From Polyangiaceae bacterium (GTDB lineage Bacteria; Myxococcota_A; Polyangia; Polyangiales; Polyangiaceae): DNA of 64,000 nucleotides. Both the position numbers and the translations under genes were made by a program. This document shows positions 50,961 through 64,000 of this stretch, in pieces. The stretch's first letter is position 1. The number at the start of each line of letters is the position of its first letter. Location of the stretch: contig DATJXW010000083.1 of the NCBI GenBank assembly GCA_035499895.1, forward strand, positions 10,793 through 74,792, given 5' to 3'. Under the pieces are notes generated by a model. The model was not told the DNA's origin and ran no database searches. It saw only the letters and a list, made by a program, of their open reading frames with translations.

Positions 50961-50962
50961 GC

Positions 50963-51568: not shown

Positions 51569-51575
51569 AGCGCGC

Positions 51576-51932
51576 TCAGCCCCCCGCGGCGACGGGTGTC
51601 CCTTGGTGAAAGACGATGCGCCACCCCGCGCCCTCGCGACGCCAAATCGAGCTTCGGAGTGATCCCGGCGTCTTGTACGTGGCGAGCGCCACGTCCGGCG
51701 ACAGCGCGAGCACGGCGAAGTCCGTGATCGTCACGGAGACGTTCGGCATCGCGAGCATTTGCGCGATCACCTCGGCCTTCCCGTAAACGCGCCCGGAGCT
51801 CCCGAACTCGACGAACTCGTCCGAAACGAGCCGCTCGAGCGCCTCGGCGGACGCTCGCACGGTAGCCGTCAAGAGCTGCCGTTCCCCGTCGCGGATTTCG
51901 TCGGTCAGCACGCGCTTTCCGAGACTCGACAT
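51576..51932 (-). CDS. SnoaL/DUF4440 (NTF2-like) protein
   Basis: LLTATVRASAEALERLVSDEFVEFGSSGRVYGKAEV...GWRIVFHQGT. Confidence 0.65.
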   Translation of the reverse strand: MSSLGKRVLTDEIRDGERQLLTATVRASAEALERLVSDEFVEFGSSGRVYGKAEVIAQMLAMPNVSVTITDFAVLALSPDVALATYKTPGSLRSSIWRREGAGWRIVFHQGTPVAAGG

Positions 51933-52363
51933 CGCCAGCCGCCGCCGGACTGCCGCTCACGAAACTCTTCTCGGTATTCGCTGCGAGCGTCGGGCCCGAG
52001 GAGCTCGCACGGGTCGAACCAGTGCGTGGTCGTCGCCCTGGCGAGCACCGCCGGAAGCTCGCCCGAAAACTCGGGATTATCCGGGCACCGCCAGTGCCAG
52101 AGAGCAAGTCGGTCCGGCGCGGTGGCGAAGTACAGCACCTCTTTGACGCCGCCGTTGCAGTTCGTCGCGACGACGAGCGTGCCTCCCGGGAGCTCGCCTT
52201 TCACGTCCGGAACGCGCACGACGAGATCGTGATGGAATTCTCCCTGCTGCCAGTGATTCACGAGCTCGTACCGGCCCCACCGTTCGCGCACCCGCTCGAG
52301 GAGTGCGGCGAGCAACAGCGTGCCGGCGAGCTCGGTGACGACCGCGTGCCGCGCTGGTTCCAC
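51905..52363 (-). CDS. Hypothetical protein
   Basis: Coding-like composition with no recognised family. It overlaps the downstream gene by 28 nt. Confidence 0.4.
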   Translation of the reverse strand: MEPARHAVVTELAGTLLLAALLERVRERWGRYELVNHWQQGEFHHDLVVRVPDVKGELPGGTLVVATNCNGGVKEVLYFATAPDRLALWHWRCPDNPEFSGELPAVLARATTTHWFDPCELLGPDARSEYREEFRERQSGGGWRCRVSESAC

Positions 52364-52607
52364 TCGTTCAGTCTATCTGCCGGCGGGCGCCGAGCAACTC
52401 AGTCGCGCGAGCGCGCGACCCCGACCCGACGTCAGAGCGCTCGCTTCCAGCGCGTTTCGCCCCCGAGCTCTTCCGTCGCGTCAACGACGTGCAGCGCACG
52501 GCGACGGCCCGACCGCTCGAAGTACTCGATATGTCGACGCCGAAACGACGGCGCGCCGTCATTCATGCGTCGTGAAGGCGTCGCATGTCCGGCGTAGCGT
52601 GCAGCGC

Positions 52608-53939
52608 ATGCGACGGTTCGGCGAGTTCACGCGGATCGCGTGCGTCGCCGCGGCCGTTTCGTTCGTGTCGGCCGTCTCGCCGCGCTTGCGCGCCGACACG
52701 GCGTTGAGTCTGCCGGCGCAAGTCGGCGAGAAAATTTTCGCCGATCGATCGCTCTCGGCGTCCGGGCAGCTTGCCTGCGCGACCTGTCACGACCCCGCGC
52801 ACGGTTACGCCTCGCCGAACGGCTTGGCCGTCCAGCTCGGCGGCCCGTCGATGTCGCTGCCGGGCACACGTGCGGTCCCGTCGCTCCGCTACAAGGAGTT
52901 CACGCCGCCGTACGCGGACGTCGCCGACAATCCGGACGGTGTGAGCAATCCGGGGCCGGGCGGCGGTTTCACCTGGGACGGCCGCGCGGCGACGCTCGCC
53001 GACCAAGCGCAGATACCCCTGCTCGCCCCGAACGAGATGGCCAACGTCTCCGAAGCCGACGTCGTGAACAAGCTTCAAAACGCCGCGTACGCGGATTTGT
53101 TTCGCGCCGCCTTCGGTAGTGACGTGTTCGGCTCGCCCTCGCTCGCGTTTCAATCCGCGCTCGACGCCCTCCAGGCTTATCAACTCGAGGACAGTGACTT
53201 TCACCCGTACTCGAGCAAGTTCGATTTGTATCTCGGCAACAAGATCGGGGGTGACCTCACGGACTCCGAGCGGCGCGGCGCGGGTGTGTTCGCCGATCCG
53301 AACAAGGGCAATTGCTTTGCGTGTCACTTCGCCGGACCGGGCGTGAACGGCAGTAGCGATCTCTTCACCGACTTCACCTATGCCGCGCTCGGCCTGCCGC
53401 GGAACCCGGAAATCCCAGCGAACGCGGCCCCGAGCTACAACGACCTCGGCATTTGCGGCCGGCCGGACCATCCGTTGCCGGACAGCGCGCAGTATTGCGG
53501 CTTGTTCAAGGTGCCGACGCTGCGCAACGTCGCCACTCGGAAGGTCTTCTTTCACAACGGCAAGCTGAAGTCGCTCCGCGACGTGCTGCGCTTTTACAAC
53601 ACGCGCGACACGAACCCCGAGCTCTGGTACCCGACCGTCAACGGAGTCGTCCAAAAGTTCGACGATTTGCCGCCGCAGTACCAAGCCAACATCGACACCC
53701 AGGCGCCGCTCGACGGCCGCCCCGCCGGCTCCGAGCCGCCGATGTCCGAACAAGACCTCGACGATTTGGAGGCGTTCCTCGAAACGCTGACGGACGCGGA
53801 TCTCGTGACTCAGCCGAGCCCGCCGCAAGCCGTGCCGGCGTTCGGAAACCGTGGTGCGCCGCTGCAAGTGTTCTTGCTCGCGCTCTTGTCGGCGGCGATT
53901 CTGAGCGTCGGTTGGCGTGGAGCAACCCCGGTGCGCTGA
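52608..53939 (+). CDS. Di-haem cytochrome c peroxidase (CCP/MauG family) with C-terminal hydrophobic tail
   Basis: Two CxxCH motifs (CATCHDP, CFACHFA) and FKVPTLRNV. Confidence 0.85.
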   Translation: MRRFGEFTRIACVAAAVSFVSAVSPRLRADTALSLPAQVGEKIFADRSLSASGQLACATCHDPAHGYASPNGLAVQLGGPSMSLPGTRAVPSLRYKEFTPPYADVADNPDGVSNPGPGGGFTWDGRAATLADQAQIPLLAPNEMANVSEADVVNKLQNAAYADLFRAAFGSDVFGSPSLAFQSALDALQAYQLEDSDFHPYSSKFDLYLGNKIGGDLTDSERRGAGVFADPNKGNCFACHFAGPGVNGSSDLFTDFTYAALGLPRNPEIPANAAPSYNDLGICGRPDHPLPDSAQYCGLFKVPTLRNVATRKVFFHNGKLKSLRDVLRFYNTRDTNPELWYPTVNGVVQKFDDLPPQYQANIDTQAPLDGRPAGSEPPMSEQDLDDLEAFLETLTDADLVTQPSPPQAVPAFGNRGAPLQVFLLALLSAAILSVGWRGATPVR

Positions 53940-53975
53940 GGCGAGCGTCACGAGGTTCGCGAGCAGCCACAGTAA

Positions 53976-54518
53976 TCAGTCTGGATAGAACTCGGTGCTG
54001 ACGACGACCTTGTCTCGAAAACAAACCTCTCCGAGGTCCGCGTTCCACGCGGGCTCGAAGGAATGATGATAGATGCGACAAAGGTCGGGTTCTCGTCCGC
54101 GGCGCGGGGCGAGCGGCCCGGCGAAGTACTGCCGCAAGCGTGCGTCCACGTCGGCGGCGCCCATGCCCGGACGAATTTGCTGAAAGTCGCCCAGGAATCG
54201 ATCGCGAGACGTCCACGGATAGCCGAGAACGCCGATGGTCGCCGCGACGAGCCCCGTCCCTAGAACGCCCGCAATGGTGCGAGGGAGCGACATCAGCGAC
54301 GCCCCGGTCAACGCCAGAGCGACGAGGGAGACGATGGTGCCGAAGAAATACCACCTCGAGATCGGCAAGCCGGCGGCCGTGAGCATGAAACGAATGAACA
54401 CGGCGAACAGGTCGACGCCGACGAAGGCGAGGCTTATCGCGATCAGCAGGCGTGGTGTGGTGCTCACGACTTTTTCGGCTCGTACCGCAGCGCTGCGGCA
54501 GCGGAATGGAGGCAGCAC
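53976..54518 (-). CDS. Hypothetical membrane protein
   Basis: It has 3-4 TM helices and a small soluble C-terminus. Confidence 0.5.
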   Translation of the reverse strand: MLPPFRCRSAAVRAEKVVSTTPRLLIAISLAFVGVDLFAVFIRFMLTAAGLPISRWYFFGTIVSLVALALTGASLMSLPRTIAGVLGTGLVAATIGVLGYPWTSRDRFLGDFQQIRPGMGAADVDARLRQYFAGPLAPRRGREPDLCRIYHHSFEPAWNADLGEVCFRDKVVVSTEFYPD

Positions 54519-54646
54519 CCGTCGAGCGTGGCGTTGATGGAGTCACGCGGGGGTCGCATGCCCGAAGAGTGCCGCCGTTCGCCGACGCCAGCAACGAGTG
54601 AGCAAGCGTCGAGGATGTGCGCCGCCACGCGCCGTGCGGAGCGCGC

Positions 54647-54946
54647 TCAGGGCCCGAAGCGCGCGACGACTTCACCCACCATGCGTTGGACGGGTCCGGC
54701 GAGAAGCGGACGCACGTTCTCCGCGAACCAGGGGCCAGCGAGTTTGCTCGAGACTTCGTCGAGTGCTTCGCGCGACTCGAAGAAGGAAAGCGACACCGTC
54801 TCGGTCTCGCTCAGCTGAACGAGCTGCGCACCGAGAAACCCGGGATAGAGTTCCTTGGCGCGCATGAACAACTCGCGTTCGACTTTGCGCAAGAGCTCCT
54901 GATCGAGCGGCTTCACGAGCGTGAACTTGGTGATGATCGTGTGCAT
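54647..54946 (-). CDS. ABM/Dabb-like (ferredoxin-fold) small protein
   Basis: MHTIITKFTLVKP...VSLSFFESREALDEV has the size and pattern of an antibiotic-biosynthesis-monooxygenase-like domain. Confidence 0.5.
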   Translation of the reverse strand: MHTIITKFTLVKPLDQELLRKVERELFMRAKELYPGFLGAQLVQLSETETVSLSFFESREALDEVSSKLAGPWFAENVRPLLAGPVQRMVGEVVARFGP

Positions 54947-55020
54947 GGTTGCTTGCCTTGCCTCCGAGTCGAACACGATTCTTGCAGCCGCTCGAGCGGC
55001 GCAGAGGGTCAGCGTCCCCG

Positions 55021-55902
55021 TCATTCGTCTTTGGTGAGTGTTACGTCGTCGATGATGTTGCTGTCGTCGTCGCTCGCGTCACCATTCAGGAACTCAATCG
55101 TCGTCAGGGCCGACGTGGCGGAAAAATGAAGGACGAAACGCTTCCACGCAAGCGTGTTCGTTCCCGTTCCGTCGGAGTTCGTCGTCGTCGCTATCTCGCT
55201 GTCGTCCACGAGAACGTGGACGACACTGGTGGTTCCATAGGGCGCAGCGACCACGTTCCCGGACCAGAACGACAACGTGTAGGACGCGTCCGGTGCCGTG
55301 GCTACGGACTGAGAAACCCCGGTCGCGGTGTTGCTCAGGCCCGTAAGGTCCAGCGTCTGGTTCCCGTCCTCGGGCGGCCAGGTGATGCCGTCGCTCACGT
55401 ATCCTCCGCTGAGCGGCGCAACATTCCCCGTCTCCCCCACCACCGTCCACCCCTCGAAGCTGCTGCCGGTCGCGAAGAGTTCGTATCCGCCTGCGGGAAC
55501 GACCGGGGATTCGAAGCTGCAGTTCACGAGCAAGGACCTTTGCTCGCAACCTCCCACCGACTCCCCGCCTGAACCGGCGTTGACCTCCTCGCCGCCCGCT
55601 CCCGTCGACGTGGCACCGCCGAAGCCGCTGGCCATGCCCCCCGCGCCCGACAACCCATTGCCGCCTGTGTTCTCGTCACCCGCGGCGCCCGAAGTGGCCG
55701 TCTCGGCGGCACCTCCCGCTCCTGAACCCGCCTGGACACCGACTTCGGTGCCCGCCATGCCTCCGCCCGAATGACCGCCGGCCGCAACGGCAACCCCGGC
55801 GGCGCCTCCACCAGCTGTCGAGTTCGTATCGTCCTTGCATGACCAAACCAGAAAGCCTGCAACGGTCGTCGTGACGAGGATAAGAACCCTCACATTTGCC
55901 AT
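55021..55902 (-). CDS. DUF642-domain secreted lipoprotein
   Basis: Signal/lipobox (LVWSC), Gly-rich linker, NCSFESPVV..GWTV..GNQTLDL..SQSV.T..ASYTLSF. Confidence 0.7.
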   Translation of the reverse strand: MANVRVLILVTTTVAGFLVWSCKDDTNSTAGGGAAGVAVAAGGHSGGGMAGTEVGVQAGSGAGGAAETATSGAAGDENTGGNGLSGAGGMASGFGGATSTGAGGEEVNAGSGGESVGGCEQRSLLVNCSFESPVVPAGGYELFATGSSFEGWTVVGETGNVAPLSGGYVSDGITWPPEDGNQTLDLTGLSNTATGVSQSVATAPDASYTLSFWSGNVVAAPYGTTSVVHVLVDDSEIATTTNSDGTGTNTLAWKRFVLHFSATSALTTIEFLNGDASDDDSNIIDDVTLTKDE

Positions 55903-56107
55903 GATAGAAGACTCCTGGGTAACGGCACGGGAACGGGTGACGAAGGATACGAGCGACTCTCGAGCGACCTTCCTACGGTAACCGCGCGACGTGACGGCCG
56001 CGTTTCGGACTCACGGCCGTCGCTGATCGCGGTTAAACCGGCGCGAAGCGCAGTGCCCGCAGCGCGGCGAATTGTCGACGTCGAACGTCCGTCCTACGCT
56101 CGTCGTC

Positions 56108-56638
56108 ATGATGAGCCCCGAATGGCTGCGCGCCTCTGCTCGTTACAATCGGTGGATGAACGACAAGCTCTACGGGCTTGCCGCCACGCTCGGCGACGAA
56201 GCGCGCAAGCGCGATGTCGGCGCGTTCTTCAAGTCGATTCACGGCACGTTCAACCACCTTCTGCTCGCCGACCGGGTGTGGCTCGCCCGTTTCGACGGCG
56301 TCGTCAGCCCGCCCGGCTGCCTCGCTCCAGGGGGCATCCGCTCACTCGACCAAGAGCTCTTCGCCGACTTCGAGGATCTCCGCCGCGAGCGAACGCTCAC
56401 GGACGACGCGCTCACGAAGTTCGTGTCCGCGCTCACGCCCGAACGTCTCGCCGCGCCACTCGTGTACGACCGCTTCGGCGAAAAGCACGAATGTCCGTGC
56501 TGGTGGGCGATTGCTCACCTCTTCAACCATCAAACGCATCATCGTGGTCAGATCACGACGCTCTTGACGCAACGAGGTCACGACCCGGGCGTCACGGATT
56601 TGTTCGCGATGTTGCGGCTCGAGGCGACGCCGGCTTGA
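56108..56638 (+). CDS. DinB-family protein
   Basis: YNRWMNDKL, HGTFNHLLLADRVWL, HLFNHQTHHRGQITTLL. Confidence 0.8.
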   Translation: MMSPEWLRASARYNRWMNDKLYGLAATLGDEARKRDVGAFFKSIHGTFNHLLLADRVWLARFDGVVSPPGCLAPGGIRSLDQELFADFEDLRRERTLTDDALTKFVSALTPERLAAPLVYDRFGEKHECPCWWAIAHLFNHQTHHRGQITTLLTQRGHDPGVTDLFAMLRLEATPA

Positions 56639-56682
56639 ATTTCGTCGAGGCGCGAGCCGCGCGAACGCCGTGATGGTCCGAG

Positions 56683-57126
56683 TCATGGCGGGTCCAGCTG
56701 GTCGCGCGGCTCCTTGCCGTCGGAGAAGGGATGAAGGAGCAAGAGCTCGAGCATCTGCGCTCGGCGACGGGTCGACCAATTCGGATCGAGCAGAGCGAGG
56801 AGCTCGAGTTGTCTGGCAAAGATCGCACGCCGACAATCCTCACCGTCGATGCGGTTCCGAACCTCGAAGCTGCACGCCATACTGAACGTCACGGCCGTGA
56901 AAATCCGCTCCAGGAGTGCGTCCTCATCGACGAAGGCGTCGCGCACGAGCTCCTGCCCGCGCTCGACCACGACGTAGTACGGCAATTCACCGACGACCTC
57001 GATGTGCGGACGCGCCCCGTCTTCCGTCGAACCGAAGGTCGGCAGATCCGCGTCAGGGGCGTGAACGACGGCAGCGAGCTGCTTCACCCGTTTCTGAATG
57101 CGCCGAAGCGTGCTGTCGTTCGCCAT
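56683..57126 (-). CDS. Hypothetical protein (immunity-protein-like, last ORF of the cassette region)
   Basis: Coding-like and 147 aa, 3 nt downstream of the small ORF 57130..57330. No family was firmly recognised. Confidence 0.5.
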   Translation of the reverse strand: MANDSTLRRIQKRVKQLAAVVHAPDADLPTFGSTEDGARPHIEVVGELPYYVVVERGQELVRDAFVDEDALLERIFTAVTFSMACSFEVRNRIDGEDCRRAIFARQLELLALLDPNWSTRRRAQMLELLLLHPFSDGKEPRDQLDPP

Positions 57127-57129
57127 GGC

Positions 57130-57330
57130 TCAGTCCGCTGAGTCCTCCAGCCACACGCCGCCGATTTGGAGATCACCCGCGAACGCGCACGCGTTCAACA
57201 TCGCAATGTCGTCTTCCGACACGGCATTGGCACGCATGAAGGCGACGCACTCCGCCGGCAGCGTCTCACGTGGGGTACCCGCCGCTGCCAACGCCGAGCC
57301 GAGCATCGAGATGCGATCAGTGACGGTCAT
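57130..57330 (-). CDS. Small hypothetical protein (66 aa)
   Basis: MTVTDRISMLGSALAAAGTPRE... It is tightly coupled to the downstream ORF. Confidence 0.35.
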   Translation of the reverse strand: MTVTDRISMLGSALAAAGTPRETLPAECVAFMRANAVSEDDIAMLNACAFAGDLQIGGVWLEDSAD

Positions 57331-57439
57331 CGAAAGCTCCAACCAATGTACCCCAAACCGGCCGAGGCTTTCAGACTCGCTCGACCACCCCGAGGAGCGC
57401 AAGAGAAACGCGCGCTGCCGGAAATTGCCGGCTCATCCT

Positions 57440-57943
57440 TCACGACGCACTCCGATACCGGACGACGCGGATCTCTCCGTCAAACGAGAGGGCGTCCAGA
57501 ACTCCCAGCATCAGCCGCAGGGATCCGTCCGCTCCAATCCCGCCGGTACCCGCACCAATGAGCGGGAGAGCGAGCGAGCGAAAGCCTGCCTGGGCGGCGA
57601 CTCGTACCGCGCTCCGAACGGACTCCTGAATCGACCGAGGAGACGCGCGCCACAGCAGATTGATTCCCGCGACGTGAATGATCGCACGAAAGGGGAGCCG
57701 CCCCGCGCTTGTCACTACTGCGGCGCCAAGCGGGAGGACGCCGAAGGCGCGAAGCTCTCTGAACGGGGCGAGTCCGGCACGCTGCTTGATTGCGCCCGAC
57801 ACCCCCTGGGGCAGCAGGAGCCACCACGGAAATAGGTTCCGGTTCCAGGGGTTCACGACCGCCTCGACATCCTGGTCGAGCAAATCACCTTCAATCACAT
57901 GGAGCTGCACGGCCGATCGAAACGCCGACGAAGCCCCGCACAT
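57440..57943 (-). CDS. Macro-domain protein (ADP-ribose binding/hydrolase)
   Basis: VIEGDLLDQDVEAVVNPWN, GVSGAIKQRAG, GAAVVTSAG, IIHVAG, ALPLIGAGTGG. Confidence 0.75.
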   Translation of the reverse strand: MCGASSAFRSAVQLHVIEGDLLDQDVEAVVNPWNRNLFPWWLLLPQGVSGAIKQRAGLAPFRELRAFGVLPLGAAVVTSAGRLPFRAIIHVAGINLLWRASPRSIQESVRSAVRVAAQAGFRSLALPLIGAGTGGIGADGSLRLMLGVLDALSFDGEIRVVRYRSAS

Positions 57944-57958
57944 TCCGATGTTCGTTGT

Positions 57959-57999
57959 GTACCCGATTTCAGCGCGTCAGCGGCGAACCGGTGTTAGCC
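57959..57999 (-). repeat. attC-like site B (left box degenerate)
   Basis: GTACCCGATTTCAGCGCG TCAGC GGCGAACCGGT GTTAGCC. The stop TAA of 57994..58635 lies inside the box. Confidence 0.55.
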
Positions 58000-58635
58000 G
58001 GTCAACGCTCGGAGCCGCTCGAGCAATGCAGGGTCAGCTCGGACCAGGCCGACCGTCGGGTGTCGACTGAGACCGGAGTGCCGTTCCGCAGCGGCTTGCA
58101 GGGCGATGGCCGCGTGAGTCTTGGCTCTGTCGGCGTCACCGCGCGACCACGCGATCAGACTCCGGGCCGCGGCCACTTCGAAACGATCGGCGGTGAACGT
58201 GGCTTGGGACTCGGCCGACTCGAGAACGGAGAGTGCCTCCACGAAAGCGCCCTGCAAATTCCGCCGGGCAACGAAGAGCGGAAATTCAAAGCCAACGCGC
58301 GTTCTGACGTTTTGCGTCTCCCGTTCAGCCGCGAGAGCAGCACGGTAAGCCTCGAGTGACCCGGCAACGTCGTCCAGTGCATCACAGCTCTGCGCACGTT
58401 GAAGAAGCGCTTGGGCGCGGTGGATGGGTGCATCGTAGTTTTCAAGCAGTTCAGCGAGGAGAGCGAGGGCGGCGCCATGCTCTCCGGCCTCAGCCAAGTG
58501 CGCCGCCTGAATCCGGAGGTACTGCGCCCGCGACGCCGGGCGGCTGCGCGCGAGCCGTTTTTCAAAGTCCACGCGGTCCGCCTCGGTCCAGCTGGTCTTG
58601 CGAAACCACTCGGCCATATCAGGTCTCGCTAGCAT
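57994..58635 (-). CDS. TPR-like helical repeat protein (cassette ORF)
   Basis: All-helical with Ala/Leu-rich TPR-like pairs. Coding-like. Confidence 0.55.
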   Translation of the reverse strand: MLARPDMAEWFRKTSWTEADRVDFEKRLARSRPASRAQYLRIQAAHLAEAGEHGAALALLAELLENYDAPIHRAQALLQRAQSCDALDDVAGSLEAYRAALAAERETQNVRTRVGFEFPLFVARRNLQGAFVEALSVLESAESQATFTADRFEVAAARSLIAWSRGDADRAKTHAAIALQAAAERHSGLSRHPTVGLVRADPALLERLRALTG

Positions 58636-58725
58636 CTGTCGTCGAGCGAGTCGACGACGAATCGGACGAATGCCGTCTCAGCGGGTCTCGAAACCGGCGG
58701 ATGATGACGATTCGGCTATCCGTAC

Positions 58726-58782
58726 GCCTAACTTACCAGGTTTCAGTTGCGCCGAAGGAGCAGAAGCGACACCGGCTTAATG
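58726..58782 (-). repeat. attC-like site A (partly decayed)
   Basis: GCCTAAC TTA CCAGGTTTCAGTTGCGCCG...CAGAAGCGACACCGG CTTAATG. Its core is related to site G. Confidence 0.55.
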
Positions 58783-59394
58783 CTCGTTCGAGCGATCGCC
58801 CGCGACCGTCAGGGTATCGAACAAGCGAACAATAGCGTTGAAGGCCGCCTTGACGGCGTCGCCGGCCTCTCCCGGAAGCGACGAGCGCCCAAAGCAGCGT
58901 TGCTCTTGGATCAGTTCCCCCTCGAAGGTCACGAGTGGAGCGTCTGAGGCCAGCACATCGCGAAGCTTCCGCGCTTGACGGAGATGCAGGCGATAAAGGT
59001 CGGATGCCACGGAGTTAGTCTCGTCCGACGCACTCGAACCGAGCTTGAGGTAGTATTCCTCGAGCGCGTCGTGCAGCCGTGCGCGTATGGCCGACTCCCG
59101 CAAATCAACCAAACGCTCGACGCGCCCGTGCGCGACGACGCGCGAACCCTCGCGAATCTCGAAGTCCAGCCCAGGAACGACCTTCCCGAGGTGCTCGGCC
59201 GGCGACAGGAAGTGCAGGAAGGCACGCACGCGCTGCCCGGGAAGAACGCGCTCATCGTCGGGGTACTCATGCATGGCATCCCAGTCACCGTTTGCGTAGT
59301 GAACCTGGGCCCGGTAACCAGTCCAGACCGGAGTGCTGCGCCCGCCCTCGCTGGTCGGCACGAATTGGAGGAAGACCTCAATGTCGCGACGCAT
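58777..59394 (-). CDS. Stand-alone EF-Tu domain-III homologue fused to a helical C-terminal domain (cassette ORF)
   Basis: SEGGRSTPVWTGYRAQVHY...LPGQRV...GLDFEIREGSRVVAHGRV aligns by eye with EF-Tu DEGGRHTPFFKGYRPQFYF...MPGDN...GLRFAIREGGRTVGAGVV. Confidence 0.65.
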   Translation of the reverse strand: MRRDIEVFLQFVPTSEGGRSTPVWTGYRAQVHYANGDWDAMHEYPDDERVLPGQRVRAFLHFLSPAEHLGKVVPGLDFEIREGSRVVAHGRVERLVDLRESAIRARLHDALEEYYLKLGSSASDETNSVASDLYRLHLRQARKLRDVLASDAPLVTFEGELIQEQRCFGRSSLPGEAGDAVKAAFNAIVRLFDTLTVAGDRSNEH

Positions 59395-59404
59395 CTGCAA
59401 GTTT

Positions 59405-59457
59405 GGCTAACGTACCAGGTTTCAGCTGCGCCGCGTCTGCTGCAAACCGGATTTGCG
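59405..59457 (-). repeat. attC-like site D (short form)
   Basis: GGCTAAC GTA CCAGGTTTCAGC TGCGCCGCGTCT GCTGCAAACCGG ATTTGCG. Confidence 0.7.
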
Positions 59458-59476
59458 TGGCGGCGGCCTGTGACAT

Positions 59477-59851
59477 TCATCGTTCTGTTCGCCGAGCACG
59501 ACCTCTTAGCAGCCGAAGCAGAAGCTGCGGGCAAAGAAACCACAGCATCGCGTTCCCCAGATACGCGGGACCCGTCAGCGGACCGACAAAATCCTCCCAG
59601 CGACCATTGTGCTTTTCGAACGCTGCAGCCGTGAAGGGAAGTCCGACGATGCGCAGGTCATCGGCAAGGGGATAGATGACGAAGAATGAAACGGTCGCGA
59701 GGACTATGCTCGCCCCTAGGCAGGCTGACCGTTCCCACGGAGTTCGGTAGCTCCGACGAGAGTCTCGTCGATTTCGGATAAGAGCACGCGCTCCCGCCCA
59801 GAGTCCGATGAACCCCGAGACATTGAACACGAGCAGGACGAGGCTGGCCAA
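59477..59851 (-). CDS. Hypothetical membrane protein (cassette ORF, TTG start uncertain)
   Basis: It has 3 predicted TM segments. The start codon is uncertain. Confidence 0.4.
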   Translation of the reverse strand: MASLVLLVFNVSGFIGLWAGARALIRNRRDSRRSYRTPWERSACLGASIVLATVSFFVIYPLADDLRIVGLPFTAAAFEKHNGRWEDFVGPLTGPAYLGNAMLWFLCPQLLLRLLRGRARRTER

Positions 59852-60101
59852 TCCACCGAATAATACGCCGAGCTCAGACGGAGATTAGCGGATCAGCGCG
59901 CCAGCTACCAGCACCGATTCGCGCGAAACGCGGTCGTCAACGCCAGGTACTCCTCGCGGGTATCGCCAGGGCAACCGTGGGCGCAACCGCCTCTAATCGG
60001 AAGCGGTCCGCCGGTAGCAGGACGAGCGCGCGACACCGGACGATCGCATGCGGACAACAGAACACGGGTCCATCTGCCCAACCGTCCGTCGCTCATGCGT
60101 T

Positions 60102-60174
60102 TGGCAACGTACCATGGCTAAGCTGCGCGGGTCGAGCGTAGCGAGACACCCGTCCGTTCAGCCCGGAGTTAGGC
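60102..60174 (-). repeat. attC-like site E (divergent core, canonical right box)
   Basis: TGGCAAC GTA CCATGGCTAAGC...GTTCAGCCCGG A GTTAGGC. It has the same bulged-stem geometry with a different core sequence. Confidence 0.7.
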
Positions 60175-60184
60175 AGACGACGCC

Positions 60185-60616
60185 TCAGAAAGTGTCGAAG
60201 GCTACGACGACATCCGACCGACGAGCTCCGGACCACCGTCGCGCCAGGGCTGCGTACTTGAGCACCGCCGATCGCGGGCCGTTCCAACGAACTTCCAGGA
60301 CCGGGTCACCGCCGGGACCAGGTGGTGCGCGCCCGTGATCATCGTCAACCGAGCACAGGTTGCCCGGGCCGTCTGGAGTCGGTGCGTCGAGCGGCACTAT
60401 CGATGCTTGCGTCGCGAAGGGTGTGGTCGCTCCGCAGTCGCGCTCGAACACCACGATTTTGAACGGCCGGTCCGGCGAGGGGTATTCCTGAATGAGCTGA
60501 TTGGCACAAAGATCCGCAACCAACGCGCGCTCGCCGATTGCCGCGACGGCGGCCAAGGATGCGAGCGCGGCCAACCCGCTGGCTGTTACCTTGAGCCGCA
60601 ACGTCCAGTAGGTCAT
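60185..60616 (-). CDS. Hypothetical TM-anchored/secreted protein (cassette ORF)
   Basis: MTYWTLRLKVTASGLAALASLAAVAAIG... ATGA overlap with the upstream ORF. Confidence 0.45.
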   Translation of the reverse strand: MTYWTLRLKVTASGLAALASLAAVAAIGERALVADLCANQLIQEYPSPDRPFKIVVFERDCGATTPFATQASIVPLDAPTPDGPGNLCSVDDDHGRAPPGPGGDPVLEVRWNGPRSAVLKYAALARRWSGARRSDVVVAFDTF

Positions 60617-60990
60617 GGGAGAAGCTTGCGATCCGGAGGCATGGCTGGTGGATCGAACCGATCGAAGCGTGCTCTTAGAAAATATGTAACTGGCGATAGA
60701 CAAAGACCGAAGGCGAGTAGGGCGATCCAAACCAAAGTCACGCCCATTGCTGGGATCGTCGGGACGTCCCCATCAGTGACCACCTGGAAGCCAAACCGGT
60801 ATTGGGTTTCAATCAGCGCGCTAAATAGAACGAACGCAGTGGCGAAGACGGTCGGAATCGAAAGGATGGCAGCGACTGGCACGCCGCAGGCAACCAAAGT
60901 GAATCGATCCATGGGTTTTGTTCTCGAAGGGTAAGAGATCGGACCGCAGGGCAGTGTGAAGATTTCATGGAGAAACCGCGCATAAAACAT
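60613..60990 (-). CDS. Hypothetical membrane protein (cassette ORF)
   Basis: It has TM helices. The ATG at 60990 lies 15 nt after the box of site G, whereas the longer track ORF reads through the repeat. Confidence 0.45.
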   Translation of the reverse strand: MFYARFLHEIFTLPCGPISYPSRTKPMDRFTLVACGVPVAAILSIPTVFATAFVLFSALIETQYRFGFQVVTDGDVPTIPAMGVTLVWIALLAFGLCLSPVTYFLRARFDRFDPPAMPPDRKLLP

Positions 60991-61004
60991 CAGCCCTCCA
61001 TTGT

Positions 61005-61062
61005 CCCTAACGTACCAAGGCTTCAACTGCGCCGGGTGAGCAGAAGCGCAGAAGCGAACGCG
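61005..61062 (-). repeat. attC-like site G (right end decayed)
   Basis: CCCTAAC GTA CCAAGGCTTCAACTGCGCC...GCGCAGAAGC. The stem GCTTC..TGCGC/GCGCAGAAGC is present. Confidence 0.55.
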
Positions 61063-61115
61063 CGGCACGTTTCTTTGAGCCGTGCGACGTGATTGATCAA
61101 GCGTACATCTAGTGA

Positions 61116-61229
61116 ATGGCCAAGACCTACACGACCGCGAACGCTCGAGCCAAGCTCGCCGACATCGTTGACGAGGTCGAGGCCGGCTCCGAGGTCGAGC
61201 TCACGCGACGCGGTTCTACGAAGGGCTGA
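61116..61229 (+). pseudogene. Truncated Phd/YefM-family antitoxin remnant
   Basis: MAKTYTTANARAKLADIVDEVEAGSEVELTRRG then a premature stop. It matches the N-terminal half of Phd/YefM antitoxins, and no partner toxin is present. Confidence 0.45.
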
Positions 61230-61394
61230 CCTTCAGCGATGTGGAAGGCATCGGCGGATGCCATCTCGAACAGGTCGGCATGCAAGTGCAGGCCATCGAA
61301 ACTCGAAGCTGCCATGGCAACCGCGGACTCGAGCACACCGTCTAACGCCGGTCATAACGTCGCGCAAGTCGCTTCGGCTCGCCTCCAACCGCGC

Positions 61395-61443
61395 GCCCGA
61401 CGTACCAGGTTTCAGCCGCGTCAACTGCAAACCGGAGTTAGGC
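61395..61443 (-). repeat. attC-like site H (short form)
   Basis: GCCCGAC GTA CCAGGTTTCAG CCGCGTCAA CTGCAAACCGG A GTTAGGC. Confidence 0.75.
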
Positions 61444-61463
61444 GGCTCTTGCTCGGGGGTTGG

Positions 61464-61487
61464 CCATGTGTAAAGGTTCACACATGG
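61464..61487. promoter_or_regulatory. Perfect 8-bp inverted repeat over the vapB start (candidate operator)
   Basis: CCATGTGT-N8-ACACATGG. The right arm contains the vapB ATG. Confidence 0.4.
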
Positions 61488-61684
61488 CGACGAACCTTGC
61501 GATCGACGAACGGCTTCTAGACGAGGCCCGCAAGGTTGGCGGGCACAAGACGAAGAAGGCGACCGTCAATGAGGCGCTGACGGAGTATATTCAACGCCGA
61601 AGGCAACAGAAGGTCTTGGACCTGTTCGGGAAAGTCTCGATCGACGCCGACTATGACTACAAGGCTCAGCGGCGGCGCCGGTGA
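61484..61684 (+). CDS. vapB: VapB-type antitoxin
   Basis: MATNLAIDERLLDEARKVGGHKTKKATVNEALTEYI. It overlaps the PIN gene in a GTGA. Confidence 0.7.
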   Translation: MATNLAIDERLLDEARKVGGHKTKKATVNEALTEYIQRRRQQKVLDLFGKVSIDADYDYKAQRRRR

Positions 61685-62100
61685 ACGTCATCGTCGACAC
61701 GTCCGTCTGGTCCCTGGCACTCCGTCGAGATGCGCCCCGAGAAACGGCTCCCGAACGCGAGCTCGGCGAGCTGGTTCGCGAAGGGCGCGTGCTGATCGCT
61801 GGGCCCATCAGACAAGAACTTCTCTCGGGGGTTCGCGCGCCAGCGCAGTACAAGGCCCTCCGTGACAAACTCCGCGCATTTCCCGACATCGCGCTTGGGA
61901 CCAACGACTACGAAAACGCCTCTGCGTGCTTCAACCGCTGCCGGTCGAAGGGTGTCCAGGGATCAAACACCGACTTCCTGCTGTGCGCGGTGGCCCTGCG
62001 CCTGGATGCAGGGATCCTGACGACCGACAAGGACTTCGACCACTTCGCCAGGATCCTAAGGATCAAGCTGCACCGCCCGAGGCACGGACTGTCCGCCTAA
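61681..62100 (+). CDS. vapC: PIN-domain toxin VapC
   Basis: VIVDTSVW..., ...ILTTDKDF. The acidic PIN residues are in order. Confidence 0.8.
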   Translation: MNVIVDTSVWSLALRRDAPRETAPERELGELVREGRVLIAGPIRQELLSGVRAPAQYKALRDKLRAFPDIALGTNDYENASACFNRCRSKGVQGSNTDFLLCAVALRLDAGILTTDKDFDHFARILRIKLHRPRHGLSA

Positions 62101-62159
62101 CGATCACGCGCGGTTCGGCGGTCGCCTCCCCCCGGGACAAGATGAGTGAGCCACGGGGA

Positions 62160-62690
62160 TCAATGCCAATGCTGCCAGGCGCCGATGCTAATGGTGGTCA
62201 CTGCGATCGGAACGTGCTGCCCGAGGAGGTCAAGCCATCGATCGCGTCCGCTCGCGTCCCAAGCAATCTTGACGATTCCGTCGAGGCACGTGAGCTCGAT
62301 CGTCTCGACGAAGCCCCGCGCGACCGCATCCGTCGTGGACAGCAGGAGACGCGCCGAGGTGATCTCCGTCCACGACATCTGCAGGCCGTGCGATACACCG
62401 ATCAGACGAAAGCCGACCTCATCGCACACCAGCGTGCCCGGATTGCGAAACTCCGGCAGGAGGCCGGCTCGGGCTACTCGGAGATGGTGACGCCACACGA
62501 ACCCGAACCCGCAAGCCGCAATCCCAAAGCCGAGAAGAACGATACGCCAATCATCGAGCACCAGCAGCAGCACCGCAGGCAGGGGAAGGACGACGCCGGC
62601 GACTCCAACAAGCCAGTTCTTGACATGCCAGCGCCGCGCCCTCGCGTTCGTCGCTCGACGGTACTCAGCGGCTCGAACATGCTGCTCCAT
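62160..62690 (-). CDS. Hypothetical membrane protein (cassette ORF)
   Basis: The ATG at 62690 lies 6 nt after the box of site I. It has two TM helices and a soluble C-terminal domain. Confidence 0.5.
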   Translation of the reverse strand: MEQHVRAAEYRRATNARARRWHVKNWLVGVAGVVLPLPAVLLLVLDDWRIVLLGFGIAACGFGFVWRHHLRVARAGLLPEFRNPGTLVCDEVGFRLIGVSHGLQMSWTEITSARLLLSTTDAVARGFVETIELTCLDGIVKIAWDASGRDRWLDLLGQHVPIAVTTISIGAWQHWH

Positions 62691-62696
62691 CTGTCC

Positions 62697-62772
62697 GCCT
62701 AGCGTACCAGGTTTCAGCAGCGCCGGCCGAGCAAACGCGAGGGCGGCGTCTGCTGCAAACCGGAAGTTGGGC
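62697..62772 (-). repeat. attC-like site I (long form)
   Basis: GCCTAGC GTA CCAGGTTTCAGCAGCGCCGGCCGAGC AAAC GCGAGGGCGGCGTCTGCTGCAAACCGG AA GTTGGGC. Confidence 0.8.
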
Positions 62773-62779
62773 AGTCCCT

Positions 62780-63442
62780 TTAGTCTTCGAACGGATAGGG
62801 TAGCTTCTGGATGGCCTCGAAGTGGTGCCGCCGGCAGTGGACGCTGAGCGAAACGCAAAGCCGTTCGCACCCGTCTACGCGGCAGACGCGCGGACCAACT
62901 TCGGGATCCCGAGACCACTTTTCGTACTGACGCTTCAGGTATGCGACGGGCGGGCGGTAGGGGACCTGGATCGTGGGAACGGCCCCCATCTGGAGGTAGT
63001 AGAGCCGGCCTTCAGCGGAGAGGGCACGTTCCAAGAACTCCGAAAAGGATGCGGCGATCACATGACGAGAGCGAGAATCTTCGTGGTCGCAGTCCAGGAT
63101 CCGATTGTCTCCCTCGACGGATCGTTCGAGCTCGATTGCCACGAAATTACCGTCATGGACGTCGCAGAAGGCGTACCAAGACGCCGGCTCAGAATCCACC
63201 CACTCGGCACCACACAAGGCGCTCCCAGTTCGCTGAAATTGCTCGACGGGGAGAAGGCAGTATCCGCCCGCGAGCTCGGCACGGTGAATCCGGAGATAGA
63301 AGGCGCGTAGGTCAGCAGGGAGCGTGAATCCGGACCTACTCTCGAATGCGTCCAGCCGCTCGGCCGCGTTGGCTCGTGCGAGCTCGTGACTGTCTGACGC
63401 TTCGACCGCGCTGATCAAAGCCTCGAACGATATCTTCATCAC
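62780..63442 (-). CDS. SMI1/KNR4 (SUKH-1) family protein (cassette ORF)
   Basis: FESRSGFTLPADLRAFYLRIH...WYAFCDVHDGNFVAIEL is SUKH-like. The C-terminus has a Cys/His cluster (CRVDGCERLC..HCRRHH). Confidence 0.65.
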   Translation of the reverse strand: MMKISFEALISAVEASDSHELARANAAERLDAFESRSGFTLPADLRAFYLRIHRAELAGGYCLLPVEQFQRTGSALCGAEWVDSEPASWYAFCDVHDGNFVAIELERSVEGDNRILDCDHEDSRSRHVIAASFSEFLERALSAEGRLYYLQMGAVPTIQVPYRPPVAYLKRQYEKWSRDPEVGPRVCRVDGCERLCVSLSVHCRRHHFEAIQKLPYPFED

Positions 63443-63464
63443 CGCTTCAGCTTTCGACTGGCCT

Positions 63465-63539
63465 GCCCAACGTACCAGGTTTCAGCAGCGCCGGCCGAGC
63501 GGAAGCGAGGGCGGCGTCTGCTGCAAACCGGAGTTAGCC
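63465..63539 (-). repeat. attC-like site J (long form)
   Basis: GCCCAAC GTA CCAGGTTTCAGCAGCGCCGGCCGAGC GGAA GCGAGGGCGGCGTCTGCTGCAAACCGG A GTTAGCC. The stop TAA of 63534..63947 lies inside the box. Confidence 0.8.
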
Positions 63540-63947
63540 GGCCTGCGCACCGAGCGCGGCAAGCACCGCACGTTGGTCGTCGTCGTCGCAGACACCGTGG
63601 CCCTTCGTCAACATAGAAAGGAGACCGACGGAGCGTTGAGCTTGCGCGGCAGCGAGCACCTTATGGTGACCATCAAGAATGTAGTGCGTGAGACACAGGT
63701 GCTGTTCAACAATCCCATCAGTTTCGGCGGGGCCCTTCACGTCCAGGATCGAAATTGCAACCGCGGTCGGCGTTTTACCAACGGCAAGCGCCGCGCCGTA
63801 GGCCGCAACCGTCTCTGGATTGAGCCAACGCCCTGGAAACATCGGAACCAGAAACTCAAACAAGCGCCGAGCGGGCGTTATCATCTTTGTGCCGAGCCGG
63901 TAGTACTCGGTTCGAGGATCGTGCGGCAGGTCCCAGAACGTATCCAC
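63534..63947 (-). CDS. Hypothetical protein (cassette ORF; HYILDGHHK motif)
   Basis: Coding-like. LDGHHKVLAA is reminiscent of ParB/Srx-type DGxHR motifs (weak). The 5' end is close to the window edge. Confidence 0.45.
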   Translation of the reverse strand: MDTFWDLPHDPRTEYYRLGTKMITPARRLFEFLVPMFPGRWLNPETVAAYGAALAVGKTPTAVAISILDVKGPAETDGIVEQHLCLTHYILDGHHKVLAAAQAQRSVGLLSMLTKGHGVCDDDDQRAVLAALGAQAG

Positions 63948-64000
63948 ACCGAAAAGGTCTGTCTGCTCGTGACTAAAGTAATCATCGATCCCACCCGGTC

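What the first reader, a model, noticed from the sequence alone, without database searches (positions are those of the whole stretch)
57950..64000. Integron-type gene-cassette array: attC-like bulged hairpin sites separating small promoterless ORFs, running off the right edge of the window
There are eight clear copies of an imperfect palindrome 41-76 bp long, at 57959-57999, 58726-58782, 59405-59457, 60102-60174, 61005-61062, 61395-61443, 62697-62772 and 63465-63539. Their form is RYYYAAC-GTA-CCAGGTTTCAGC...GCTGCAAACCGG-A-GTTRRRY. An example is 63465 GCCCAAC GTA CCAGGTTTCAGCAGCGCCGGCC..GGCGGCGTCTGCTGCAAACCGG A GTTAGCC. The arms pair over about 20 bp, with the same 2-3 unpaired bases each time: the A in CCAGG and the G in TTTGCAG. 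The centre varies in length and sequence (short forms D and H, long forms I and J, a different core in E) while the terminal 7-mers and stem geometry are kept. That is the defining architecture of integron attC sites (R''-L''...L'-R' with extrahelical bases). Each interval holds one or two small ORFs, nearly all on the minus strand. These start 5-22 nt after a box, and their stop codon lies in or just before the next box (TAA inside GGCTAAC for 63534..63947 and 57994..58635). GC is visibly lower than the rest of the window. No integrase or attI is in the window. If cassettes are minus-sense, intI should lie to the right of 64000. I am not aware of a characterised sedentary integron in this kind of high-GC myxobacterial genome, but I cannot check that here.
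Basis: partly seen in the sequence, partly recalled or inferred. Interest (0 to 1): 0.85.

Follow-up and report, generated by a model that had tools for sequence, protein, structure and literature searches.

The report
Integron cassette array without its integrase
The repeats are genuine integron attC recombination sites separating small gene cassettes in a soil myxobacterial (Polyangiaceae) genome, but the array has no integrase nearby, so it is an ordinary member of a well-known class of elements.

Summary
The repeats are real and confined to one cluster. About 14 same-orientation sites lie between window 57952 and about 68980, which is 5 kb past the window edge on the same contig. In the window, five of the eight sites are complete and three are degenerate.

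Across 46 sites from 16 loci the hairpin shows strong compensatory covariation. The unpaired bases sit 8 and 15 nt from the R box with a 6-bp spacer, as in attCaadA7.

A covariance model built only from these repeats picked out genuine class 1 attC sites in resistance plasmids. These took the top 13 hits, with E as low as 1.5e-5, all on the bottom strand. This fixes the window + strand as the recombinogenic strand and puts the cassettes on the − strand.

Relatives carry the same attC family next to integron integrases that pass TIGR02249.

The window's own locus has no intI, no intI remnant and no attI-like motif from position 1 to about 81134. It is therefore a CALIN (cluster of attC sites lacking an integrase), not a complete integron. 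NCBI already annotates integron integrases in Polyangiaceae MAGs.

The parts
57952..57999 (+). Degenerate terminal attC at the distal end of the array. Both arms are mutated. The stop codon of the 57994-58635 ORF lies in its GGCTAAC box.
   Evidence: 5 and 3 mismatches to the half-site consensus. It does not fold as a hairpin and is not scored by R2.
57994..58635 (-). Cassette ORF, 213 aa (gene caller: 207 aa), no Pfam family.
58726..58782 (+). attC with an intact left (R'-L') arm and a diverged right arm.
58777..59400 (-). Cassette ORF, 207 aa, with a weak EF-Tu domain-3-like match below the Pfam cut-off. It starts 5-11 nt from the next box.
59405..59458 (+). Complete short-form attC (54 nt). 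The + strand is the bottom strand.
   Evidence: R2 48.8 bits, E 5.5e-12. The predicted minimum-energy fold is the expected bulged hairpin.
59477..59851 (-). Possible cassette ORF, 124 aa, hydrophobic. Not called by the gene caller, so uncertain.
60102..60174 (+). Complete attC with a variant core (CCATGGCTAAGC...GTTCAGCCCGG). It belongs to the compensated 'GGGCTAAGC/GCTTCAGCCC' class also seen in relatives.
   Evidence: R2 52.4 bits, E 4.4e-13; alignment A2
60185..61068 (-). One or two overlapping minus-strand ORFs (181 and 151 aa, hydrophobic). The gene caller instead called a + strand ORF at 60335-60934, so coding here is unresolved.
61005..61062 (+). Partial attC: left arm only, right arm lost.
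61116..61229 (+). Truncated Phd/YefM-type antitoxin fragment (37 aa), the remains of a degraded toxin-antitoxin cassette.
   Evidence: PF02604 26.7 bits (cut-off 29.8), profile positions 2-33 of 74
61395..61443 (+). Complete short-form attC (49 nt). It lacks the apical stem and the second extrahelical T.
   Evidence: R2 49.6 bits, E 3.3e-12
61460..62100 (+). VapB antitoxin (61460-61684) and VapC PIN toxin (61681-62100). This toxin-antitoxin pair is oriented opposite to the other cassette ORFs.
   Evidence: PF09957 67 bits and PF01850 41.5 bits
62160..62690 (-). Cassette ORF, 176 aa, membrane-like, no family. It starts 7 nt from the next box.
62697..62772 (+). Complete long-form attC (76 nt).
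   Evidence: R2 85.5 bits. DNA fold -24.4 kcal/mol, z -3.81 on the + strand, against -19.4 kcal/mol on the - strand.
62780..63442 (-). Cassette ORF, 220 aa: SUKH-1 / SMI1_KNR4 immunity-type protein.
   Evidence: PF09346 61.1 bits
63465..63539 (+). Complete long-form attC (75 nt).
   Evidence: R2 96.5 bits. R1, the model built from genuine class 1 attC sites, hits it at full length on the - strand with E 0.14. DNA fold z -4.43.
63534..64000 (-). 3' part of a cassette ORF (255 aa, continuing to 64301 on the contig). Its stop codon lies inside the GGCTAAC box.

Best explanation
**What it is.** Window 57952-64000 is the distal two-thirds of a chromosomal integron-type gene-cassette array in a Polyangiaceae (Myxococcota) metagenome-assembled genome. 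The whole array spans about 57952-68980 and has about 14 attC sites spaced 0.4-1.3 kb apart. Cassette genes read on the - strand. The + strand carries the attC bottom (recombinogenic) strands. The promoter-proximal end is therefore on the right.

**How it works (inferred).** When single-stranded, each site folds into a hairpin made of:
- R boxes (RYYYAAC/GTTRRRY);
- a short internal loop;
- an L-box stem with an extrahelical C 8 nt and an extrahelical T 15 nt from the R box;
- a variable terminal structure.

An integron integrase would bind this fold and cleave between A and C of the AAC triplet, excising or inserting cassettes.

**Status of this locus.** It lacks intI, any intI remnant and the clade's attI-like motif, so it is a CALIN. 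It is either a stretch of an integron separated from its integrase by rearrangement or deletion, or a store of cassettes that can only be mobilised in trans by an integrase encoded elsewhere.

Several sites are decayed: three in the window, plus two half-sites beyond it. Four are shortened to 49-54 nt. Part of the array is therefore probably fixed in place. The VapBC and PIN toxin-antitoxin cassettes plausibly stabilise it.

**Shown:** site architecture, covariation, strand polarity, similarity to genuine attC sites, association of the family with IntI in relatives, and absence of intI here.
**Inferred:** actual recombination, and where any trans-acting IntI is encoded.
For: - **Clustering.** The repeats are clustered, co-oriented and far above chance.
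- **Covariation.** In 46 sites from 16 loci, 89.4% of cells are paired, against 21-47% in slid controls. Twelve of 25 pairs show compensatory double changes (99 cells; 0 of 500 shuffles reach this). The unpaired C is invariant; the unpaired A and T are at least 90% conserved.
- **Geometry.** The unpaired bases lie on the arm opposite the AAC triplet, 8 and 15 nt from the R box and 6 bp apart. This matches the published attC bottom-strand rules (PMC5027507, PMC7439510).
- **Forward model test.** Model R2, built only from these repeats, finds genuine class 1 attC sites as its top 13 hits in 88 kb of plasmid DNA (estX, aadA1, VIM-2, aadB, aadA2, qacL, cmlA1, dfrA14 and others). The ten best have E 1.5e-5 to 0.018. 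All lie on the strand opposite the cassette genes.
- **Reverse model test.** Model R1, built from 14 genuine attC top strands, ranks the window-contig sites first, second and third. The hits are full length and on the - strand.
- **Strand stability.** The + strand folds 4-5 kcal/mol more stably than the - strand, as described for bottom strands (PMC5027507).
- **Integrase in relatives.** The same attC family adjoins integron integrases: L033 (329 aa, TIGR02249 442 bits), L035 (325 aa, 419 bits) and L032 (internally deleted, 310.6 bits; cut-off 265).
- **Cassette features.** Stop codons lie inside the R'' box. The content is typical of cassettes: mostly unknown ORFs, toxin-antitoxin pairs and immunity proteins.
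- **Distribution in relatives.** The family pattern occurs in one or two clusters per genome, not scattered.
Against: - No intI, intI pseudogene or attI-like motif lies between window 1 and about 81134. Nothing in reach can act on these sites.
- IntegronFinder's own attC model could not be run. My substitute built from genuine attC sites gives only marginal E-values (0.06-0.14) and detects only the long-form sites.
- Short-form sites (49-54 nt) are below the published 57-141 nt range. They lack the second extrahelical base, and their folds are no better than shuffles.
- The spacer next to the R box is partly base-paired (CC-A-GG with CCGG) rather than a fully unpaired 5-6 nt central spacer.
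- Recombination activity was not and cannot be tested here.
Confidence: 0.9

Rival explanations
1. A generic REP/MITE-like palindromic repeat family, unrelated to integrons, that happens to sit between genes.
For: The sites are imperfect palindromes in intergenic positions. No recombinase lies in the neighbourhood. The short copies fold no better than shuffled sequence.
Against: - All copies are co-oriented and confined to one 11-kb cluster within about 81 kb examined.
- In other genomes the family also occurs as one or two co-oriented clusters.
- A model of the family retrieves genuine attC sites ahead of everything else in plasmid DNA.
- The family adjoins TIGR02249 integron integrases in three relatives.
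- The AAC/GTT triplets and the positions of the extrahelical bases follow the attC rules.
Confidence: 0.03
2. A complete, active integron whose integrase was simply not reached. The intI would lie more than 12 kb to the right or elsewhere on the chromosome, and this array would be its working cassette store, serviced in trans.
For: - About half of CALINs occur in replicons that also encode IntI, and rearrangements can split arrays from intI (PMC4889954).
- Full-length IntI genes exist in Polyangiaceae MAGs with the same attC family.
- Several sites here are intact and fold strongly.
Against: - In all three relatives intI is directly adjacent to the first cassette, with a conserved attI-like motif.
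- Here the proximal end abuts high-GC housekeeping genes, with no such motif.
- Five of about 14 sites are degenerate or halved, which suggests relaxed selection on recombination.
Confidence: 0.35
3. Hairpins serving mainly as transcription terminators or mRNA-stabilising elements after each small gene, with any likeness to attC incidental.
For: Each site lies just downstream of a minus-strand ORF, and the long forms are stable GC-rich hairpins.
Against: - There is no T-run after the stem.
- The conserved 7-mers flank the stem on both sides.
- The bulged bases are invariant while the stems covary.
- One site follows a toxin-antitoxin pair in the opposite orientation (61395-61443 next to vapBC).
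- Cross-recognition with genuine attC sites is not expected for terminators.
Confidence: 0.02

Closest known systems
CALIN, a cluster of attC sites lacking an integron integrase (Cury et al. 2016, PMC4889954)
   Same: There are at least two co-oriented attC sites less than 4 kb apart, with no intI within 4 kb. As for 95% of published CALINs, there is also no intI pseudogene within 10 kb. The cassettes are mostly of unknown function and include no resistance genes.
   Different: With about 14 sites it is larger than most CALINs (83% have fewer than 6). The host is an uncultured Polyangiaceae MAG. Several sites are visibly decayed.
Sedentary chromosomal integrons such as the Vibrio cholerae superintegron (VCR sites)
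   Same: The array is chromosomal and its attC sites are highly homogeneous. Toxin-antitoxin cassettes are interspersed. Most cassette ORFs are uncharacterised. The attC bottom strands appear to lie on the leading-strand template: the + strand has negative GC skew, and PMC5371416 reports this orientation in 25 of 30 such integrons. This last point is tentative.
   Different: There is no adjacent intI, attI or Pc. The array is much smaller. The attC sites are 49-76 nt, against about 120-130 nt for VCRs. In relatives of this clade, intI is co-oriented with the cassettes rather than divergent.
Class 1 integron attC sites (attCaadA7 paradigm; also the blaVIM-2, estX, cmlA1 and dfrA14 sites)
   Same: - RYYYAAC/GTTRRRY boxes.
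- Extrahelical bases 8 and 15 nt from the R box with a 6-bp spacer.
- Bottom strand more stable than top strand.
- The two models recognise each other's sites.
- An extrahelical C in place of the usual G also occurs in the VIM-2, estX, cmlA1 and dfrA14 sites.
- The apical motif CTCGCT-NN-CGCTC resembles that of the estX, VIM-2 and dfrA12 sites.
   Different: - The spacer on the R' side is 8 nt rather than about 6.
- That spacer can pair with the other side, leaving one conserved bulged A.
- The sites are chromosomal and sit in a 60-64% GC context.
- There are no resistance genes.
Integrons with intI co-oriented with the cassettes (the 'inverted integrase' group, e.g. Treponema denticola; recalled from my own knowledge, not tested here)
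   Same: In relatives L032, L033 and L035, intI is on the same strand as the cassettes and upstream of them.
   Different: This cannot be assessed for the window locus, which has no intI. Phylogenetic placement of the Polyangiaceae IntI within that group was not done.

Membership tests
integron attC site | Terminal 7-mers RYYYAAC ... GTTRRRY with conserved AAC and GTT triplets that pair with each other | tested here: met
   In 46 sites, A5 and A6 are at least 90% conserved and C7 is invariant. G/T/T at the 3' box are at least 90% conserved. The AAC/GTT pairs are kept in 43-44 of 46 sites. Of the eight window sites, AAC is intact in 4, is GAC or AGC in 2, and is degenerate in 1-2.
integron attC site | Imperfect hairpin conserved in structure rather than sequence | tested here: met
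   12 of 25 pairs carry compensatory double changes, in 99 cells. Paired cells are 89.4%, against 21-47% in slid controls. No shuffle out of 500 reaches this. RNAalifold independently recovers the stem.
integron attC site | [quoted passage not shown] | tested here: met
   The + strand reads ...CG-T-CTGCTG-C-AAACCGGA-GTTRRRY, with C at position 16 and T at position 23 from the 3' end. C is invariant and T is at least 90% conserved. The first base is C rather than the usual G, as also in the VIM-2, estX, cmlA1 and dfrA14 attC sites. The 49-51 nt short forms lack the T.
integron attC site | Unpaired central spacer of about 5-6 nt on each arm between the R and L boxes | tested here: inconclusive
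   Aligned to the class 1 model, the spacers are 5 nt (CCGGA) and 8 nt (GTACCAGG). They can form CC/GG pairs that leave a bulged A and a GTA/A internal loop. The asymmetry is kept, but the region is not fully unpaired.
integron attC site | Variable terminal structure; total length 57-141 nt | tested here: inconclusive
   Length varies through the apical region: 49, 54, 73, 75 and 76 nt in the window, and up to about 100-167 nt in relatives. Four sites on the contig (49-54 nt) fall below the published minimum.
integron attC site | Recognised by an attC covariance model (the IntegronFinder criterion) | tested here: inconclusive
   IntegronFinder's model was not available. The substitute R1, built from 14 genuine class 1 attC sites, ranks the long-form sites first to third in 84 kb, at full length and on the predicted strand. 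Its E-values are only 0.06-0.14, and it misses the short forms. The reciprocal test is clearly positive: family model R2 retrieves genuine attC sites as its top 13 hits, ten of them at E of 0.018 or lower.
integron attC site | Sits at the 3' end of a usually promoterless ORF; arrays are co-oriented with cassette-sized spacing | tested here: met
   Spacings are 774, 679, 697, 903, 390, 1302, 768, 888 and 1107 nt. Most ORFs are on the - strand with the site just downstream, and three stop codons lie inside the R'' box. Absence of promoters was not tested.
integron attC site | Recombined as a folded bottom strand by an integron integrase | not testable with these tools
   This needs a suicide-conjugation or in vitro assay.
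CALIN | At least two attC sites less than 4 kb apart on one strand and no integron integrase within 4 kb (PMC4889954) | tested here: met
   About 14 sites are present, with a largest gap of 2.6 kb (it contains two half-sites). There is no IntI by tblastn with IntI1 or with a clade IntI (best E 0.65) across window 1-64000, L001 and L021, i.e. up to about 81134. No Phage_integrase Pfam family appears among the called genes.
complete integron | An intI gene (tyrosine recombinase with the IntI-specific domain, TIGR02249) adjacent to the array, with attI and Pc | tested here: not met
   None is found within 58 kb to the left or 12 kb to the right. The attI-like motif conserved in three relatives (AGAAGTRCWAGTTRGSCAG) is absent from the window and L001 even with 3 mismatches. 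The criterion is met only in relatives L033, L035 and L032.

The most novel reading that the evidence does not exclude
Polyangiaceae integrons have intI co-oriented with the cassettes. They may use a lineage-specific attC dialect with three features: an 8/5-nt partly paired spacer with an invariant bulged A on the R' arm, an invariant extrahelical C, and recurrent 49-54 nt 'mini' sites that lack the second extrahelical T and the apical stem.

If the clade's integrase recombines these mini sites, they would be the shortest natural attC sites. They would also relax the accepted rule of two extrahelical bases 6 bp apart. The near-identical sites in Gemmataceae and Competibacteraceae MAGs would then mark a cross-phylum cassette pool in soil.
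Probability: 0.15. Interest if true: 0.5.

Novelty: new member of a known kind. Interest (0 to 1): 0.3.

Why it matters
This locus adds a well-documented cassette array and a defined attC family to the Polyangiaceae, a group of large-genome soil predators in which integrons have only been annotated automatically. It also gives a calibrated family model with a known strand polarity.

The cassettes carry toxin-antitoxin pairs and polymorphic-toxin immunity-type proteins rather than resistance genes. That is relevant to how social myxobacteria acquire kin-discrimination and defence genes.

It does not change the understanding of integrons. CALINs, decayed arrays and environmental integrons across many phyla are established findings.

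Tried and rejected
1. **Exact-protein look-ups** for the 63534-63947 and 62780-63439 ORFs found nothing, probably because the gene caller chose other starts. The VapC ORF worked.
I reached it instead through the search for homologous proteins.
3. **A generic 'AAC...GTT plus fold energy' scanner** was too unspecific in this high-GC DNA and was dropped.
4. **Homology of the promoter-proximal end.** I compared the 140-aa ORF next to the last site with the 154-aa ORF next to intI in L014, and compared the DNA of the two ends. I found no similarity, so there is no evidence of a simple intI deletion from the same ancestral end.
5. **The clade's attI-like motif** was searched for in the window contig and not found.
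6. **Extrahelical C as a novel feature** was considered and rejected. The blaVIM-2, estX, cmlA1 and dfrA14 attC sites also have C there.
7. **A specific link between this family and the VIM-2/estX attC sites** (a shared apical motif) was considered. R2 scores the aadA1 site, which has a G, about as high (26.4 against 26.2-27.7 bits), so no specific link is shown.
8. **Further degenerate sites left of 57952**, in the Macro, Imm63 and DinB gene region, were searched for with R2. None were found; the best hits have E of 0.06 or higher and look like noise.

Full report
**Observation.** The window sequence shows the reported repeats at the reported places. The right half-site CTGCAAACCGGAGTTAG matches five times with up to 3 mismatches, against 0.07 expected, all on the + strand between 57981 and 63537. 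The good matches to the left half-site ACCAGGTTTCAGC are likewise confined to 57961-63486. The repeat finder groups them into co-oriented families.

GC is 0.60-0.64 here, against mostly 0.68-0.74 elsewhere. The lower GC already begins near 49-53 kb.

Five of the eight sites are complete: 59405-59458, 60102-60174, 61395-61443, 62697-62772 and 63465-63539. Three are degenerate: 57952-57999, 58726-58782 and 61005-61062.

**Source and extent.** The VapC ORF led to ENA contig ERZ27256576:k141_3655107 (60,410 bp). It is identical to the window over the 12,320 nt they share and lies in the same orientation. NCBI labels a protein from the same contig 'MAG TPA: acyl-CoA reductase [Polyangiaceae bacterium]'.

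On this contig the array continues past the window edge. Complete sites lie at window-equivalent 64353, 65460, 68081 and 68907. Two right-half remnants lie near 66060 and 67105. The last site ends at about 68982. Spacing is 390-1302 nt, plus one 2.6-kb interval that holds the two half-sites.

To the right come a 140-aa membrane ORF and about 500 bp of non-coding DNA. High-GC housekeeping genes follow: LuxC, a LuxE-like gene, an aminotransferase, an FHA-GGDEF protein, a cupin, a MutS-family protein and others.

**Structure.** I aligned 46 sites: 9 from this contig and 37 from 15 loci in other MAGs. On the structure I defined:
- 89.4% of cells form standard pairs, against 21-47% when partners are slid by 1-3 columns.
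- 12 of 25 pairs show changes on both sides, in 99 cells.
- None of 500 column shuffles reaches the observed values.
- RNAalifold independently recovers the main stem, with 9 compensated pairs.

Whole stem segments are exchanged between site classes, for example GGTTT/AAACC, GGGCT/AGCCC, GCGTT/AACGC and GTGTT/AACAC. Through these exchanges the unpaired C stays invariant, and the unpaired A and T stay at least 90% conserved. That pattern is expected for bases flipped out and contacted by a protein.

**Comparison with the attC rules.** According to PMC5027507 and PMC7439510, in the recombinogenic bottom strand:
- the AAC triplet lies in the 5' R' box (RYYYAAC);
- the extrahelical bases lie on the opposite arm, typically a G and a conserved T;
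- these bases are 6 bp apart, 8 and 15 nt from the R box (positions 16 and 23 in attCaadA7).

The window + strand reads RYYYAAC-GTA-CC-A-GGTTT-CAGCNG-...-CG-T-CNGCTG-C-AAACCGGA-GTTRRRY. Its C is at position 16 and its T at position 23. The geometry matches, with C in place of G.

Genuine attC sites that I extracted from class 1 integrons (blaVIM-2, estX, cmlA1, dfrA14) also have C at that position, so this is not new.

There are two differences from the paradigm. The spacer on the R' side is 8 nt rather than about 6. It can also pair with the other side, leaving a conserved bulged A.

**Model tests.** IntegronFinder's attC model was not available, so I built two substitutes.

I validated my recalled IntI1 sequence first. 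It is 100% identical to annotated IntI1 in at least 5000 plasmids. I then fetched ten class 1 integron loci and extracted 14 genuine attC top strands.

- **R1, built from the genuine sites.** It ranks the contig's long-form sites first to third in 84 kb (both strands searched). The hits are full length, on the - strand, with the extrahelical positions aligned. E-values are only 0.06-0.14, and the short forms are missed. This is supportive but not decisive.
- **R2, built only from the Polyangiaceae family.** In 88 kb of plasmid DNA its top 13 hits are all genuine attC sites. Ten have E between 1.5e-5 and 0.018. Every one lies on the strand opposite the resistance genes, which is the bottom strand. 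This shows the family shares the attC architecture. It also fixes the polarity: window + strand is the bottom strand, cassettes lie on the - strand, and the promoter-proximal end is to the right.
- **R2 in the window.** It finds only the five complete sites (E below 1e-11) and nothing credible elsewhere in 1-57900.

**Folding.** As single-stranded DNA, the two long sites fold far better than shuffles (z -3.8 and -4.4 on the + strand). They are 4-5 kcal/mol more stable on the + strand than on the - strand. This is in line with the strand bias described for bottom strands (PMC5027507). The short sites cannot be told from shuffles by energy, and the three degenerate sites do not form the hairpin.

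**Integrase.** tblastn with IntI1 and with a clade IntI finds nothing in the window, L001 or L021. This covers window 1 to about 81134, and the best E is 0.65. No Phage_integrase family appears among the called genes.

An exact-pattern scan of 185,579 species-representative genomes found the family in 16 stretches. Most are in Polyangiaceae MAGs, with one or two co-oriented clusters per genome.

Three relatives carry the same attC family next to an integron integrase:
- **L032** (MFD04944.bin.1.40): the array ends at an intI that passes TIGR02249 (310.6 bits; cut-off 265). This intI lacks the equivalent of IntI1 residues about 167-240, so it is probably inactive.
- **L033** (a Polyangiaceae MAG): a full-length IntI that NCBI names 'integron integrase', 442 bits. 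A cassette and a family attC follow it.
- **L035**: a full-length IntI, 419 bits, followed by five family attC sites.

In all three, intI is on the same strand as the cassettes. A conserved attI-like motif, AGAAGTRCWAGTTRGSCAG, precedes the first cassette. That motif is absent from the window and from L001. The two kinds of array end share no similarity.

**Conclusion.** By the definitions of PMC4889954, the locus is a CALIN, not a complete integron. It may have been split from its integrase by rearrangement, or it may have lost intI and attI. In either case, only an IntI encoded elsewhere could mobilise its cassettes. Five of about 14 sites are decayed or halved, and four are shortened to 49-54 nt. 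This suggests that part of the array is no longer under selection for recombination.

**Cassette content.**
- A VapB/VapC pair, oriented against the other ORFs.
- A truncated Phd/YefM antitoxin.
- A SUKH-1/SMI1_KNR4 immunity-type protein.
- Several ORFs with no family.
- Beyond the window: RDD, AAA-ATPase, AbiEii-like and PIN/antitoxin cassettes.

No resistance genes were seen.

The window's + strand has a negative cumulative GC skew. This would place the attC bottom strands on the leading-strand template, as in 25 of 30 sedentary integrons (PMC5371416). It is a weak inference from 64 kb.

**Novelty.** Integrons and CALINs are widespread in environmental bacteria (PMC4889954). Myxococcota are listed among integron-bearing phyla (PMC9668308). 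An integron integrase has been reported in a Myxococcota MAG (PMC12772301). NCBI already names integron integrases in Polyangiaceae MAGs. Cultured Myxococcaceae examined with IntegronFinder had none (PMC13616975).

The finding is a new, well-supported member of a known kind. It was wrong about the integrase lying just beyond the window.

Noticed in passing
window 61116-61229 (+) and 61005-61395: A 37-aa N-terminal fragment of a Phd/YefM antitoxin (PF02604, 26.7 bits, below cut-off) lies in a 390-nt interval bounded by a half attC. It looks like a degraded toxin-antitoxin cassette.
   Followed up: partly
window 56683-57943: Just left of the last (degenerate) attC lie minus-strand genes for a Macro-domain protein (57440-57943), a 66-aa ORF and an Imm63 immunity protein (56683-57126), followed by a DinB gene. 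These are cassette-like genes in lower-GC DNA, but no attC is detectable. They may be old cassettes that have lost their sites, or a separate island.
   Followed up: partly
window 49000-58000: GC is already reduced (0.63-0.69) for about 9 kb to the left of the array, so the low-GC block is larger than the attC cluster.
   Followed up: no
L001 14380-14418 and 15425-15463 (window-equivalent about 66060 and 67105): Two attC right halves without left halves flank about 1 kb that contains a weak AbiEii-like ORF. On one side, the gene caller fused an AAA-ATPase cassette and an RDD cassette across the 49-nt attC at L001 13780-13828. This points to deletions or rearrangements inside the array.
   Followed up: partly
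L014/L032 4914-6506 (+): In the related array, one inter-attC interval holds a 530-aa reverse-transcriptase ORF (PF00078 in its homologues; YMDD motif), oriented against the other cassettes. It may be a defence-type RT carried as a cassette. The gene caller called only its C-terminal 331 aa.
   Followed up: partly
L032 7941-8717 (-): The integron integrase next to the related array lacks the segment equivalent to IntI1 residues about 167-240. That region should hold the IntI-specific insertion, judging from my recollection of IntI1; I did not map it here. The protein still scores 310.6 bits on TIGR02249, so it is a recently inactivated intI.
   Followed up: yes
L033 9317-9502, L035 10979-11186, L032 7543-7940: A conserved motif, CTGGACTAR...AGAAGTRCWAGTTRGSCAG, lies between the 3' end of intI and the first cassette in three relatives. 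It is a candidate attI for this clade of integrons, in which intI is co-oriented with the cassettes.
   Followed up: partly
L011 3249-3323; L003 554-627, 1856-1924, 3045-3109; L015 3336-3409: Near-identical family attC sites occur in MAGs labelled Gemmataceae (a single site on a 1.29-Mb contig), Competibacteraceae and Pseudomonadota. This means either cassette exchange across phyla or mis-binned or mis-labelled contigs.
   Followed up: no
alignment A2 columns 39-63; plasmid loci L029 5907-5977, L022 5337-5408: The apical motif of the family (bottom strand GAGCG-NN-AGCGAG) also occurs in the attC sites of the mobile estX, blaVIM-2 and dfrA12 cassettes. R2 scores do not separate these from the aadA-type sites, so no specific relationship is shown.
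   Followed up: partly
window 62094-62160: A GCCTAAC box overlaps the vapC stop codon (62094-62100) with no recognisable hairpin after it. It may be the remnant of an attC that once separated the vapBC cassette from the 62160-62690 ORF. That would explain the unusually long 1302-nt interval.
   Followed up: no
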